Origin: Myxococcota bacterium | Lineage (GTDB): Bacteria > Myxococcota_A > Polyangia > Polyangiales > Sandaracinaceae | NCBI GenBank assembly: GCA_036149055.1 | Contig: JAYZQJ010000133.1 | Location: forward strand, 32,001 to 96,000 | Length of the DNA: 64,000 bases | Reading direction: 5' to 3' | Part shown: in pieces, positions 24,301 through 30,300 of the stretch | Layout of the letters: each line of letters opens with the position of its first letter | Numbering within the stretch: the stretch's first letter is position 1 | Made by a program: the position numbers

Positions 24301-27300
24301 CACTCGCACCTCTGCAAGGTGTTCGCGCTGCGCGCCCCGGGCGCCGGCGGACCGGGCGAGGTCGAGGAGCTGCCGGCCCGCAAGTTCCAGCTCAAGGATG
24401 GCTACAAGTACATCGTGAGCGTGGGCTCGGTGGGTCAGCCCCGCGACTACGACAACCGCGCGAGCTACACGATCTTCGACACGGAGACGCGTGAGTTCGA
24501 GTTCAAGCGGGTCGAGTACGACATCGAAGCCGCCGCGATGAAGATCTTCGAGGGCGAGCTCGAGCGAAACTTCGGTCACCGCCTGTTCATCGGCGTGTGA
24601 GCGGCGCTACTCGAGCGCCGTCAGCCTGAACAGCCCCTCCCACGGAGGCCTCCCGTCCGCGAGCGACAGGAGCGACGGGCGCTGCATCCGCCCCGCCGGC
24701 GCGACCCGCGGCGCCACCCCGGGCGGCAGCGAAGCTGCGACCGAGCGGCGCAGGGCCGCGTCCCCGGCGACGCCGAGCGTCTTCAGGTGCACGCCCAGCG
24801 AGCCCAGCGCGGCGCCGACTTGGCGCGCGTCCTCGAGGTCGAGGACCATCACGTTGCGCCAGCCCGGGCTGATCCGGAGCGCCGCGCGCCCCTCGTAGCT
24901 CACCGCCCAGCCGTCACCCTCGTGGAGCTCGCCCCGCGCCGCCGCGACCCCGCGCCACTGGATCTGGGCGGCGCCGACGTCGGCCGGCAGCGCGCCTCGC
25001 GGCAGATCCTCGGCCAGGCGCCCGAGCTGGGTCGCGAGCATCGACGCCCAGCGCCTCGCGTCGATCGCGCCTCCGCGCTCCACCCAGATCACGTGGGGCG
25101 ACATGCAGCCGCGCTGGTCGTAGGCCGCGACGTCGAGCGCGAAGGCGGTGGCGGCGGCGGCGGCCTCCGCCTCGTCGCCGAGCGCGCCGCGCGGCACCAG
25201 CCCCACGCCCAGCCCGTGGCCGTGCGGCACCAGGGTCGCGGTCGGAGAGAGGCGCTGCCGCACCGCGGTGAGGGTGGCGTCGCTGCCGTAGACCGAGACC
25301 ACGTCGGCGCGCGACATGAGCGCGCTCTCCAGGCTCGGGGTGCCGCCCGGGAAGGTGACGACCTCGCAGGCCTCGGCGAGCTCGAGGTCGATCTCGGCGA
25401 GCGCGGCCACGAAGAGCTGCGGCAAGACGTCGTCCTTGCTGGAGGCCTTCACGATCAGCGGCGAGCCGGCGAGCAGGGCCATCGAGCACGGCTGCACGCA
25501 GGCGGTGAAGACGTTGCCGGCGAGGATGAGCGCCGAGAGCCTGGCCGGGGAGAGCGCGGCGCCTTCGGCGGGCGTCATGCGGCGCGCGGCCTCGAGGTGC
25601 GCCGCCTCGTCCGCCTGCTCGAAGGTGGCGCGCAGCGCCCAGGCGATCATCGGCAGGCTGAGCCCGGTGGTCTCGGGGAGGCGCTCACGCGCGGCGCGAC
25701 CGGGCGCGCGCTCCGGATCGGCGATCAGGCCCCACGCCGCCGCCACGAGCGACGCGACCTCCTCGCGGGGCCGGGCCCGGAGCTGCGCCCCCGCGGAGAT
25801 CGCGGCCTCGACCCGGTCGCGGAGCTCCGCCTCACCGATCACCGAGGGCCTCCTCGATCGCGAGCGAGCAGCCGCGCGGGGTGGCGCCGCTGGCCCGACC
25901 GTGCAGCTCGAGCGTGTCGCCGCGCGCGCCATCGCGGCGGACGGTGGCGAGGTCGCTGGTCTGGATCCCGACCGCGGTGTCCAGGTTGGCGAGGTCGTCG
26001 ATGCGGAGCAGCCCCGGCTCTCCGTCGGGGCGCGGGGCGAGCGTCTCGGGATCGACGGCCACGCAGCGCACCCAGCCCGGGACGCCGTAGCGCCGCGGCG
26101 CCTCGGGCGCGCGCAGGGTGGTCTCGTACATCTGCGAGCTCAGCTCGGTCATGCCGTACTCGCCGACCACCCGGGCCTCGGGCACGCCGTAGCGCGCCGA
26201 GATCGCGGCCCGCAGCGCGTCGGGCGCGACCTCCCGCGAGCGGCCCTTGAAGCCGCCGGTCTGCATCACGAGGCTGCCCGCCGGCAGCGAGAAGGCGCGC
26301 TTCAGCGCGTCCTCGGCGAACACGAAGGCGAACGAGGTCCCCAGCACCGCGGTGGGCGCGTCGGTCTCGAGCGCCGCCTCGAGGGCGACGCAGTCGAGCC
26401 GGCCCTCCGAGAAGACCCAGCGGGCCTCGGTCCCGAACCAGTCGACGAAGCGCCCGAGCATGTAGCTGAGGGAGGAGTCCGGCGCCTCCTCGGGGTGCGG
26501 CGCGAGGAAGACCAGACGCATCGGCCCGGCGGAGAAGAGCGCGCGCGTGGCCTCCGCCTTCGCGGCCCGGTCGTAGAGGTCGAGCTCGCGCACGCACGAG
26601 GCGCCCCGCGCCCCGCTGGTCGTGCCCGAGGTGCGGAAGACGCGCGCGTCCTCCTCGGGCGGGTGCGCGGCGACCCGCACGTAGCGGAAGACGTCGGTCG
26701 GGACGGCGGGGAAGCCGAGCGGGTCCTCGCGGCGCTCGGCGAGCTTGGCGAGCGGCTTCACCCGCGTCCGCTGCCAGGCCGCCGCCTCGCTCAGGAGCGC
26801 GTCGCGGGCCGCGTCGTCCCGCGCGCCGTCGGCCAGGCGATCGATCAGGGCCGCGATCTTCGCGGCGAGCGCGGCGCGGCTCACGACGACAGCCTCCGGG
26901 CGAGGGTCCGGGTGAAGGCGTCGAGCAGCGCCTCGTCGACGTTCAGGGGCGGGGTGAGCTGGAGGACCTCGGCGCGCGGGCCGGCGGGCAGGGTGATCCA
27001 GCCCTCGGCGAGCAGCTCGGCGACGAGCCGGAGCACCCGGGCGCCGTCGTGCAGCTCCACCCCGACCATCAGCCCGCGCCCGCGCACCTCCTTCACCGCG
27101 TCGAGGCCGCCGAGCGCCTCCCGCAGCGCGCCGGTCCAGCGCGCGCCGACCTCGGCCGCCCGGGCGGCGAGGCCGTCCCGCTCCAGGATCTCGAGGCTGG
27201 CGAGCGACGCGGCGCAGGCGAGCGGGTGGCCGCTGAAGGTGGCGGTGTGGATGGCGGCGCCGCGGGGATCGCCCCACGCGCGCATCACCTCGATGCCGCC

Positions 27301-30300
27301 GATGCACGCGCTGACCGGCAGGGTCCCGCCCATCGCCTTGCCCGCGCAGAGCAGATCGGGGACGACGCCGTCGGCCTCGTGCGCCCAGCGCCGCCCGGTG
27401 CGCCCGAGCCCGGTGAAGATCTCGTCGAAGACGAGCAGCGCGTCCCGCCGATCGCAGGCCTCGCGCAGCGCGCGGAGGAAGCCCTCGGGCGGGAAGCGCA
27501 GCCCGCCGCGGCCGAGGGCGGGCTCGACCACCACCGCGCCGACGTCGTCGGTGAAGTGGCGCTCCACGTCGAGCGCGCCCCACGGGGCGAAGCGGACGTG
27601 GGGGTTGAGCTGGGCCGCGAAGGGCTCGCGGAAGGGCGGCGCGAAGCCGCAGAGCGCGAGCGGGCCGTACATGAGCCCGTGGTAGCCGCCCTCGAACGCC
27701 AGCACGCCGGGCTTGCCGGTGTGGAGCACGGCGGTCTTCATCGCGGCGGCGAGGGCGTCGGCGCCGTTCTGACCGAGGATCACGCGCGCGTCGTCCATCG
27801 GGGCGAGCGCGGCGAGCCGCTCGAGCAGGCGGATCTTCGGCTCCGACGGGTGCACGTCGCCGAGCGCGTGGAGGAGCTTGCCCGCCTGCGCCCGCACCGC
27901 CTCGACCACCTCCGGGTGGCCGTGACCGACGGCGGCGACGCTGAAGCCGGCGATGAGATCCACGAAGACGTTCCCGTCGACGTCGACCACGTTCGCGCCC
28001 TTCGCCTCCGCCCAGACGATCGGATCGTTCGGCGCGCCCGCCCGCTCGGCCCGCCGCGCGCGGCGCTCGGTCAACGAGGGGCACTCCGTGCGCGCGAGGA
28101 CCTCCACCCAGCGGGCGGAGTCGGCGCCGGGGATCGGGCCCCGGATCTCCGGGAGGCGCTGGCCGAGCTCCATGAGGCTCTACGTAGCAGCGTCGCGCCG
28201 TCCGAGCCCGAAGGCGGCCCCCTCCGGGTCCTCGCAGGCCGCGACGCGCAGCCCGTCGAGCGCGGTCGTGGGCGCGCCGATCACCCGCCCGCCCTCCGCC
28301 TCGACGCGCGCGAGGGCGGCGTCGAGGTCGTCCACCGGGGCGTGGAACAGCCAGTGCGGATGCACCCCGGGGAGTCGGCCGACTGTCTCGAGCACGGCCG
28401 TCTCGAGCACGGCCCCGGCGGAGCGCAGCGGCCAGACCGGACCCACGCCCGGCAGCGCCACCGGGTCTCCCACGTCGGCGGGCGTCAGGGCTCCGTAGAA
28501 CGCGGTCGCGCGGCGCGCGTCGTCGGTGTGCAGCGCGGCCCAGTCGAAGGGCCCGCGCGCGACCGGCGCCGCGTCGAGCCCGAACACCGCGCCGCCCGGA
28601 TCTCGGCAGACGGCCCGCGCCTCCGACACCGGCCCGAGGGTCAGGCCGCCGGCCGCCCGCACGCGCTCGACCGCCGCGGTCACGTCGGCCACCGCCAGCC
28701 GCCCCAGCCAGTGCGACGGCGCCCCCCGGGCCCGCGCCGGCCCCGGCAGCGGCTCGACCGCGATCTCGCCACCGAGCCGCTCCCCTTCGAACACCCTGCG
28801 ATAGAACCCGGCGGCGGCCGCCGGATCGATCGCCCGAAGCACGTGACCCGCGAAGCGCATGCCCGGAGCCATAGCCTCCCGACCGCGGCGCTCGCCACCC
28901 CCACCTCGGCGCCTCCTCGCTTCCGACCTTCCTCCCTTCCGGGGAGTCGGAGGCTTCCGAACCGCGAGCGACCGACGAAGGCGGGGGGCGCTCACCCCCC
29001 GAGGAACGGGTTCCCTGCGGCGTCGCGCGCCGGAGGCTCCTCGACCGCGACCTGGAGGGAGTCGATCCAGAGGACCTGGTCGCGGGGCGCGCCCTCGTTG
29101 CCGAACCAGGTGAAGATGTTGAGGCCTCGGGCGACGTCGGTCGCCTCCACGAGCGTGCGCTGACCGGTGGCCTCGCCGACGAGGGCGCCGTTCTTCCAGA
29201 CGCGGACGCGGCCCATGCCGCCCTCGTCCACCGGGAGCTCGTCGAGGTAGTAGTAGACCTCGTAGGTCTCCCAGGTGTCGCGCTGGACCTGTGTCTCGGG
29301 GGTGCCCCAGCGGCTCCAGCGGTGCGTGCCCTCGTAGATCCAGTGATGCGGCCGGGAGTCGTCGCGGCTGGCGAGGTACCAGTCGAGGTAGCCCCGCGAC
29401 TCCCCTCCGTCGGCGGCGAAGGTGCGCAGCCGGAGGAACTTCGAGCGGCCCTCGTTGAACTGCCAGTCCGAGGGCACGTAGAGCGCGATCCGGATCCAGA
29501 TCTCGTCGCCCTTCACGAGCTGACCGAGGCGGCGGTTCAGGATGCCGCCGAACGCGCCGAAGCCCTGGCGCCCCTCGGGGACCCCGAGCCGGCACGCGGT
29601 CGCGCCCTCGAAGACGTGGGTGTCGTCGCGCACGCTGAGCGAGAACGACTCGTCGAAGCCGTCCTCACCCCAGCAGCCCTCGCCGACCTCGCGGTCCTCG
29701 AAGTCGGCGTCGATCAGGAGCGTCGGCTCCGGGAGGACGCCCGCGTCCGGCTCGAAGCCGGCGTCGTCGGTCGCGCCCGCGTCGTCGCTGGCCCCGGCGT
29801 CGGAGGGCACGTCGACGAGGCCGGCGTCGTCGGGCGCGGCGGCGTCTCCCGCGCCGGGGGCGGTGCCGCAGCCGAGCGCGAGCACGATCCAGAGGGTCCG
29901 AGGCATGATGCGCATGCCGTCCACCCTGCCGGCCCGGCGGGCGCGCCTCCACTAACCTTCCCTGATCTCCCGTCCGCCCCCAGCCTTCGATCGTGCTCTG
30001 CCACCACCGCCTGCCCGACCTCCGCCTCACCTGCCTCCTCGTCGGCGCGGTCTACGTGCTCATCGCCGGCGCGATCCTCGTGCGGGGCGCCGACGCGATG
30101 GGCGACTACGCGGTGCCGGCGGAGGTGATCGCCAGCGCGCACTACGCCGACGCGATCACCTGGGTCTACGTGCACATGCTCGTGCTCGGCCTGCTGATCG
30201 CGACCCTCGGGACCCTGGCGGTCACCCCCACGGCCAAGCGCTGGGTCCCGCGCGGCTTGCTCGCCGTCCACCTCGTGTACCTTCTCCTCGACGTGCGCAC

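What a model noticed while it worked through the whole genome (the two positions that open the first line are those of the whole stretch)
24607..28173. Luciferase-free LuxE-LuxC reductase operon with a class III aminotransferase, core in Polyangiales
g04216-g04215-g04214 form an overlapping operon of a class III aminotransferase, a LuxE-type acyl-protein synthetase and a LuxC-type reductase, with no luxAB. It is single-copy and kept in most Polyangiales, which predicts a housekeeping route from a carboxylic acid through the aldehyde to an amine.
Evidence so far: LuxC in 31 of 40 order genomes, one copy each. 15 loci: LuxE next to it in 12 (the other 3 end at contig edges), aminotransferase within view in 10. 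Tables: LuxE-aminotransferase near in at least 214 and LuxC-aminotransferase in 316 of 592 order genomes. Cys motifs DQRGC and RGCS present; argB, argC, dapA, dapF, lysA exist elsewhere.
(Added by a program. Inside this text positions count along the whole contig: contig position 32,001 is position 1 of the stretch shown here. "Call 12" and the like, gene names such as g00115 and contig names such as C1 are that model's own, and its searches are not shown. The text may have been shortened before it was handed on; [...] marks where a part breaks off. The agent that wrote the report below was given it as the finding of a first reader that could run no searches.)

Follow-up and report, generated by a model that had tools for sequence, protein, structure and literature searches.

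The report
Alternative route to queuosine precursor
These three genes probably let many bacteria build the tRNA base queuosine without the two enzymes (QueC and QueF) that textbooks list as required, using relatives of the bioluminescence enzymes LuxE and LuxC plus an aminotransferase instead.

Summary
The operon is real: class III aminotransferase > LuxE-type ligase > LuxC-type reductase, overlapping, both catalytic cysteines intact. The order keeps queD (120 of 121 genomes) and queE (118 of 121) but almost never queC (2 full-length) or queF (1). The one genome with queC-queF has lost the trio. In 201 phylum genomes, 166 of 168 LuxE-positive lack QueC, while 29 of 33 LuxE-negative have it. 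In Verrucomicrobiota the genes sit with queuosine genes, as luxE-luxC-queD and queE-aminotransferase; one metagenome contig carries queE-aminotransferase-luxE/luxC fusion as one operon. Five Gemmatimonadota genomes show the same profile. Best reading (0.8): a QueC/QueF-independent route, 7-carboxy-7-deazaguanine > adenylate > enzyme thioesters > 7-formyl-7-deazaguanine > preQ1, which Tgt puts into tRNA. No enzymology was done. The window's own assembly lacks queE, and no queG/queH was found by motif. Eight literature searches found no such link. Complementing E. coli queC/queF mutants would decide it.

The parts
26881..28173 (-). Class III PLP aminotransferase of a distinct clade; proposed 7-formyl-7-deazaguanine aminotransferase (makes preQ1)
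   Evidence: PF00202 304 bits; below every NCBIfam cut-off among the 25 best shown; K279 and R222 in 240 of 240, L167 in 236 of 240 clade sequences; AlphaFold pLDDT 92.8, GabT/ArgD fold
25832..26884 (-). LuxE-type adenylating acyl-protein synthetase; proposed activator of 7-carboxy-7-deazaguanine
   Evidence: PF04443; LuxE 7xc6_E; invariant K213, R330, C339 align with LuxE K238, R355, C364 of PMC9157457; nearest folds are aryl-acid adenylating enzymes
24607..25842 (-). LuxC-type thioester reductase; proposed maker of 7-formyl-7-deazaguanine
   Evidence: PF05893 148 bits; LuxC 7xc6_A; invariant C246
14229..14813 (-). folE, GTP cyclohydrolase I, first step shared by folate and queuosine (context)
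   Evidence: PF01227; NF006825 170.7 bits, cut-off 174
51215..51739 (+). queD-family 6-carboxytetrahydropterin synthase with an insertion (context; start approximate)
   Evidence: PF01242 E 7e-21, only copy found; TIGR03367 68 bits, below its 89 cut-off
23839..24600 (+). Metallophosphoesterase, convergent; conserved neighbour in the order only, probably not part of the pathway
   Evidence: not seen beside the genes in other phyla
28180..28872 (-). Glyoxalase/VOC protein 6 nt upstream of the aminotransferase; not a conserved neighbour
   Evidence: not among the recurring neighbour clusters listed

Best explanation
The operon replaces QueC and QueF in de novo queuosine synthesis. FolE, QueD and QueE make 7-carboxy-7-deazaguanine (CDG) from GTP (established pathway). 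The LuxE-type enzyme adenylates the CDG carboxylate and holds it as a thioester on C339; its flexible tail passes it to C246 of the LuxC-type enzyme, which reduces it with NAD(P)H to 7-formyl-7-deazaguanine; the aminotransferase turns that aldehyde into 7-aminomethyl-7-deazaguanine (preQ1). Tgt and QueA then act as usual. No nitrile (preQ0) is formed. Shown here: gene identities, catalytic residues, co-occurrence, exclusion with queC, physical linkage to queD and queE. Inferred: the substrate, each reaction, the cofactor and the amino donor.
For: (1) Pathway hole. Order sample of 121: QueD 120; QueE 118 as the union of two models; QueC 4 matches, 2 full-length; QueF 2 matches, 1 real (the other is weak, 6.5e-7). 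(2) Swap. G029 has adjacent queC-queF and no LuxE, no aminotransferase orthologue (best 198 bits against 290-470 in four other genomes) and only a 3.9e-4 LuxC match. G233 is the one LuxE-negative genome of five in its family and has adjacent queC-queF. (3) Phylum sample of 201: LuxE+/QueC- 166, LuxE-/QueC+ 29, both 2, neither 4. Of the two with both, G243 has only a weak LuxE match (5e-8) and G277 has its QueC genes in a DpdA DNA-modification island. (4) Gemmatimonadota, 5 genomes with the aminotransferase: LuxE 5 of 5, QueE 5 of 5, QueC 0 of 5. 25 of 26 further aminotransferase-bearing genomes have LuxE, each with LuxC beside it. (5) Verrucomicrobiota sample of 201: 7 of 8 LuxE-positive lack QueC, against 158 of 193 LuxE-negative that have it. 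(6) Linkage. luxE-luxC-queD in 3 of 6 regions fetched (G292, G294, G470); queE directly before the aminotransferase in 4 of 80 genome loci and 28 of 80 metagenome loci; G292 and G294 carry both operons; L443 carries queE > aminotransferase > LuxE-LuxC fusion of 848 aa. (7) The chemistry fits the gap exactly: COOH to CH2NH2. (8) The aminotransferase lacks the Arg that binds a distal carboxylate in ArgD/GabT (L167; alignment, role recalled). LuxC has 165 residues after its catalytic Cys against 192 in P. phosphoreum LuxC, about the length of the P460-P488 element that closes the long acyl cleft (PMC9157457; inference). (9) Own Tgt and QueA pass their equivalog cut-offs; Tgt has the Cys158 and Val233 equivalents of preQ1-type enzymes (PMC3660597 passages; positions mapped by recalled motif).
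Against: No biochemical or genetic test. The window's own assembly (96% complete, 289 contigs) has no QueE; close orthologues of the genes flanking queE in same-genus G031 are missing too, which fits an assembly gap but does not exclude loss. No QueG or QueH was found there by recalled motifs. In the 100 Myxococcota loci fetched, no queD, queE, queC or queF lay beside the trio in the 40 scanned outside the order or among recurring neighbours in the 60 order loci, and folE was in view in only 6 of 60. Six LuxE-positive genomes of one family keep a QueF-like gene without QueC (just under the TIGR03139 cut-off). G491 has LuxE and a weak QueC match (4.6e-31). G105, G122, G226 and G273 have neither. 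Kin are not independent, so the Fisher values (2e-28 and 8e-5) overstate; the 7 sampled metagenome queE-aminotransferase proteins fall in one clade with the Verrucomicrobiota ones. QueF and QueD were not searched in Gemmatimonadota, nor QueF in Verrucomicrobiota; tgt was searched only in the own genome. Close LuxE-LuxC relatives on Pantoea and Azospirillum plasmids go with an SDR and no aminotransferase, so LuxE-LuxC alone is not diagnostic. Own Tgt has Ser at the Ala232 position.
Confidence: 0.8

Rival explanations
1. The trio serves the 7-deazaguanine pathway but by another order or product: it acts on a CDG nucleotide or on a base already in tRNA, uses an unusual amino donor, or makes a different 7-substituted base.
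For: Same genomic evidence as the main reading. The aminotransferase has an unusual site: Arg at the GabT Glu211 position in 240 of 240, no Arg at the Arg398 position. No QueG/QueH found in the own genome.
Against: Tgt and QueA look canonical, and QueA needs the aminomethyl group of preQ1 (established). No RNA-binding domain or phosphoribosyltransferase is seen on or beside the genes. The genes swap one-for-one with queC-queF (G029, G233).
Confidence: 0.12
2. The trio makes a fatty amine or another housekeeping amine, as TamA/TamH or TabE/TabA do; the lack of queC is inherited from a common ancestor and preQ1 is salvaged.
For: LuxE-LuxC's only characterised substrate is fatty acid (PMC12041015, PMC9157457 passages). 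Reductase plus transaminase making fatty amines has precedent (PMC9594044; bioRxiv 10.1101/2025.08.11.669332). Within Myxococcota no que gene sits beside the operon.
Against: It does not explain why queD and queE are kept in 118-120 of 121 genomes, the two swaps with queC-queF, the exclusion in a second and third phylum, or the operons with queD and queE. No ACP, LuxD or fatty-acid gene recurs nearby.
Confidence: 0.06
3. The aminotransferase is an ordinary ArgD/GabT/BioA that happens to lie next to luxE-luxC.
For: Best sequence and fold matches are acetylornithine and GABA aminotransferases. In Gemmatimonadota it lies apart from luxE-luxC.
Against: Far below the family cut-offs shown; the genome has several other class III enzymes, 11 matches in all; own clade, FastTree support 0.968 against five paralogues; fused to LuxE in 4 and to LuxC in 1 of 150 representatives; co-occurs with LuxE in 30 of 31 genomes even when unlinked.
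Confidence: 0.02

Closest known systems
QueC + QueF of de novo queuosine synthesis
   Same: Same start (CDG) and proposed same product (preQ1); uses ATP, NAD(P)H and one nitrogen; same upstream FolE, QueD, QueE and downstream Tgt, QueA.
   Different: Unrelated folds; three enzymes, not two; goes through thioesters and an aldehyde instead of the nitrile preQ0; nitrogen from an amino acid via PLP, not ammonia; one hydride transfer instead of two.
LuxC-LuxE fatty acid reductase of luminous bacteria (PDB 7XC6)
   Same: Homologous subunits; catalytic Lys/Arg pair, tail Cys and reductase Cys conserved.
   Different: No luciferase or LuxD nearby; far below NCBIfam LuxE/LuxC cut-offs (39 of 550, 33 of 750); shorter C-terminus; tied to an aminotransferase; proposed heteroaromatic substrate.
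Tambjamine amine-tail pathways TamA/TamH and TabE/TabA
   Same: Acid activation, thioester reduction, transamination to a primary amine; TabE clusters with LuxC (bioRxiv 10.1101/2025.08.11.669332 passages).
   Different: Secondary metabolism, ACP-bound C12 acyl substrates, no LuxE-type ligase; here near-universal in the lineage and exclusive with queC.
Class III aminotransferases ArgD, GabT, PuuE
   Same: Fold (TM 0.82-0.89), PLP lysine K279, DE.xG motif.
   Different: HGR to HGL, EPxQGEGG to EPxxGRGG, loss of the C-terminal Arg; own clade.

Membership tests
LuxE acyl-protein synthetase (PF04443) | Pfam score above gathering cut-off | tested here: met
   46.9 bits against 24.9
LuxE acyl-protein synthetase (PF04443) | Catalytic Lys/Arg pair and tail Cys (K238, R355, C364) | tested here: met
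   K213, R330, C339 invariant in 25 sequences and aligned to 7xc6_E
Bioluminescence LuxCDE fatty acid reductase (NF052244, NF052251) | Equivalog score | tested here: not met
   39.1 of 550 and 33.3 of 750 bits
Bioluminescence LuxCDE fatty acid reductase (NF052244, NF052251) | Clustering with luxAB and luxD | tested here: not met
   None among 28 nearby ORFs or recurring neighbours of 60 loci; not searched genome-wide
LuxC acyl-thioester reductase (PF05893) | Pfam score and catalytic Cys | tested here: met
   148 bits against 21; C246 invariant and aligned to LuxC
Class III aminotransferase (PF00202) | Pfam score, PLP Lys and Asp, fold | tested here: met
ArgD / GabT / BioA / PatA equivalogs | Equivalog cut-off and substrate-binding Arg and Glu switch | tested here: not met
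   best 283 of 457 bits; L167, R222, no C-terminal Arg (residue roles recalled)
De novo queuosine pathway | FolE, QueD, QueE upstream | tested here: inconclusive
   Own genome: FolE and QueD-family found, both just under or under equivalog cut-offs, QueE not found. Order: QueD 120 of 121, QueE 118 of 121
De novo queuosine pathway | preQ1-type Tgt, QueA and GUN-anticodon tRNAs | tested here: met
   TIGR00430 458 of 307, QueA 443 of 324; tRNA-Asp, Asn, His, Tyr with GUN anticodons; own genome only
De novo queuosine pathway | QueC and QueF | tested here: not met
   the gap that this operon is proposed to fill
De novo queuosine pathway | Epoxyqueuosine reductase QueG or QueH | tested here: inconclusive
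   Recalled motifs found none in the own genome; no profile search was run
De novo queuosine pathway | CDG converted to preQ1; queuosine present in tRNA | not testable with these tools
   needs assays

The most novel reading that the evidence does not exclude
A second, chemically unrelated de novo route to preQ1 exists and is the default in most Myxococcota, probably in Gemmatimonadota, and patchily in Verrucomicrobiota and other lineages: a LuxE/LuxC pair acts as a nucleobase carboxylic-acid reductase and a dedicated aminotransferase completes it, with no preQ0. Genome-based classifications that require queC and queF call these bacteria salvagers when they are makers. It would be the first housekeeping role for luciferase-free LuxCE.
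Probability: 0.75. Interest if true: 0.9.

Novelty: new variant of a known kind. Interest (0 to 1): 0.85.

Why it matters
Queuosine is a translation-tuning tRNA base that only bacteria make and that eukaryotes take from them. [quoted passage not shown] A replacement for QueC-QueF would reclassify abundant soil, sediment and marine lineages, give a function to thousands of genes mislabelled as bioluminescence or fatty-acid enzymes, and supply a three-enzyme route from a heteroaromatic acid to an amine, of interest beside the narrow QueF nitrile reductase (PMC13740343 passages). It is directly testable in E. coli K-12.

Tried and rejected
Beta-alanine route (malonate to beta-alanine): rejected, PanD is present. 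ArgD replacement: other class III enzymes exist. A conserved fourth partner among order neighbours (metallophosphoesterase 35 of 61 loci, HEAT protein 21, 352-aa protein 27): not seen in other phyla, read as synteny. preQ1 riboswitch: none at gathering score in the window or in 9 loci. Phage copies: no LuxE match in 50,697 phage records; 70 viral-contig aminotransferase hits are distant; the 15 best-ranked scored at most 295 bits against 350 or more for the clade, and none had LuxE or LuxC. Fold search of the LuxE model returned aryl-acid adenylating enzymes first, but LuxE itself resembles PaaK, so this is weak. ESM Atlas gave only generic names. No complex prediction was obtained, so binding between the proteins is neither claimed nor tested. 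Source names for the 150 representative proteins were not obtained, so their taxa are unknown. Literature searches with no paper linking LuxE/LuxC or an aminotransferase to preQ1 synthesis: (listings and abstract starts only, except the papers named as read). Subscription journals and all supplements were not seen and may hold such a link.
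Full report
Observation. The window holds three overlapping minus-strand genes: a class III aminotransferase (28173-26881), a LuxE-type ligase (26884-25832) and a LuxC-type reductase (25842-24607). Profiles of orthologues match the solved LuxE and LuxC chains of 7XC6 at E 5e-35 and 5e-24. The LuxE catalytic Lys, Arg and tail Cys (K213, R330, C339) and the LuxC Cys (C246) are invariant in 25 and 26 aligned sequences. None of the three reaches an NCBIfam cut-off among those shown. All searches below used G-handle genomes; G106 is flagged unpublished and adds one genome to each order tally, and no single claim rests on it.

Conservation. The LuxC model matches 119 of 121 order genomes, 113 at E<=1e-9. 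I fetched 60 of these loci; the triplet is adjacent and in the same order in 45, across 16 of the 17 families sampled. The LuxE protein matches 168 of 201 phylum genomes; in 40 loci fetched from the 134 positives outside the order, the triplet is adjacent in 27. Among 150 representative aminotransferases, four are fused to LuxE and one to LuxC. In a tree of selected sequences the aminotransferases form one clade against five paralogues of the own genome (support 0.968).

Finding the substrate. I looked for a pathway that lacks an acid-to-amine step. PanD is present. QueC and QueF are not found in the own genome, which has folE, a queD-family gene, tgt, queA and GUN-anticodon tRNAs. In the order, QueD is in 120 of 121 and QueE in 118 of 121 (82 by TIGR03365, 36 over the cut-off of TIGR04508, union counted by hand with one weak match), but QueC matches 4 (2 full-length) and QueF 2 (1 real). 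These genomes can make 7-carboxy-7-deazaguanine (CDG) but lack the known way on to preQ1, which is exactly COOH to CH2NH2.

Exclusion. G029, the only order genome with queC and queF, has them adjacent and lacks LuxE, the aminotransferase orthologue and a real LuxC match. The other full-length QueC match, G112, scores under the QueC cut-off and comes without QueF in a genome that keeps the trio. In the phylum sample: LuxE+/QueC- 166, LuxE-/QueC+ 29, both 2, neither 4 (13 LuxE-negative handles were not printed and were deduced from gaps in the handle series). G243 has only a weak LuxE match; G277 has its two QueC genes in a DpdA island. G233 is a second swap inside a LuxE-positive family. QueF matches 32 of 201: 25 LuxE-negative, G243, and six of one LuxE-positive family that have no QueC. 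Relatedness inflates the Fisher value.

Other phyla. A scan of GTDB genomes with alignment A4 kept the best 80 of 598 matches, ranked by likeness to one Gemmatimonadota-type protein, so it is not a fair sample. Five Gemmatimonadota genomes have LuxE and QueE and no QueC; 25 of 26 more aminotransferase-bearing genomes have LuxE with LuxC beside it. In 201 Verrucomicrobiota genomes LuxE is in 8, and 7 of those lack QueC, while 158 of the other 193 have it; several of the 8 look like close kin.

Physical linkage. queE lies directly before the aminotransferase in L334, L336, L342 and L344 (QueE identity, under the cut-offs) and in 28 of 80 metagenome loci (best 80 of 595). luxE-luxC is followed by queD in G292, G294 and G470, 3 of 6 regions fetched (two of three pass the QueD cut-off). 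G292 and G294 have both operons. L443 has queE, aminotransferase and an 848-residue LuxE-LuxC fusion in one run (QueE over its cut-off), on a different branch of the tree from the Verrucomicrobiota genes.

Mechanism. By the LuxCE mechanism (PMC12041015 passages; PMC9157457 passages and section 7): adenylation of CDG, thioester on C339, transfer to C246, hydride transfer to release 7-formyl-7-deazaguanine, then transamination to preQ1. That aldehyde is a known compound, released by leaky QueF mutants (PMC13740343 passage). The aminotransferase replaces the distal-carboxylate Arg by Leu (236 of 240), has Arg at the Glu-switch position (240 of 240) and lacks the C-terminal Arg (the 240 include duplicates, and His309/Thr312 were selected for by the scan pattern; residue roles are recalled). 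I infer that R222 binds the donor's carboxylate and that the acceptor has none. LuxC ends about 27 residues earlier after its catalytic Cys than the luminous enzyme, which would remove the element closing the long acyl cleft (inference). All reaction steps are inferred.

Against. The own assembly lacks QueE although all 17 other genomes of its family have it; neighbours of queE in G031 have no close orthologue here either, so a gap is likely but unproven. QueG/QueH were not found by motif. No que gene was seen beside the operon in Myxococcota loci except folE in 6 of 60. Four phylum genomes have neither system. Related LuxE-LuxC pairs serve other ends on plasmids. QueF, QueD and Tgt were not surveyed outside the samples named.

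Comparison and novelty. It works like LuxCE coupled to an omega-transaminase, with precedent in tambjamine synthesis (PMC9594044 passages; bioRxiv 10.1101/2025.08.11.669332 passages; PMC6112128 passages on CDG use in tubercidin), but is a member of neither the bioluminescence complex nor ArgD/GabT. It fills the role of QueC plus QueF, which PMC11130926 calls required. Searches found no report of this link; subscription papers and supplements were not seen.

Verdict. Real, and very likely a QueC/QueF-independent route to preQ1 (0.8; any role in the 7-deazaguanine pathway about 0.92). New variant of a known pathway with new chemistry. Interest 0.85.

Noticed in passing
L346:6875-10222 (Pantoea plasmid); L347:6845-12686 (Azospirillum plasmid): Close LuxE-LuxC relatives (35-40% identity) sit with an SDR, and in Azospirillum with an NMT1/THI5-type ABC transporter, without the aminotransferase; possibly acid-to-alcohol salvage of a small heteroaromatic vitamin fragment.
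   Followed up: partly
L250:7118-7867, L251, L252:7653-8240: Six genomes of one family keep a QueF-like gene without QueC alongside the trio; possibly preQ0 salvage or a relic.
   Followed up: partly
L249:6719-14326 (G277): Dpd-type DNA modification island with DpdA, a DndB-family gene, folE2, QueE and two QueC genes.
   Followed up: partly
own genome, whole assembly: No QueG or QueH found by recalled motifs; either a gap, a stop at epoxyqueuosine, or an unknown reductase.
   Followed up: partly
L253:4400-9400 (G031): queE lies between a helicase-like gene and an ectoine-type gene cluster; the block has no close counterpart in the own assembly.
   Followed up: partly
L094 (own genome C27:7428-8432): Second, divergent QueA-like gene, 130 bits against cut-off 324.
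   Followed up: no
order-wide: Two QueE types replace each other within the order: the Cx14CxxC type in two families, the CxxxCxxC type in the rest.
   Followed up: no
window 20765-24600 and 31332-32390: A 973-aa acidic HEAT-repeat protein, a metallophosphoesterase and a 352-aa protein with a weak SseB-like match flank the operon in 21, 35 and 27 of 61 loci.
   Followed up: partly
L040, L041, L042: In one genus LuxC has moved behind a response regulator and kinase pair, away from LuxE and the aminotransferase.
   Followed up: no
L070 (G097:C239): A second, different LuxE-LuxC pair without aminotransferase and with a different pocket motif, in a genome that also has the usual LuxC.
   Followed up: no
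window 38092-41083: KaiC-like ATPase followed by a hybrid histidine kinase.
   Followed up: no
L342: Record labelled Dongiaceae groups with Verrucomicrobiota by tree and neighbours; probably mislabelled or misbinned.
   Followed up: no
L344:13889-14008: SAM-I riboswitch 2.6 kb downstream of the aminotransferase, before an unrelated gene.
   Followed up: no
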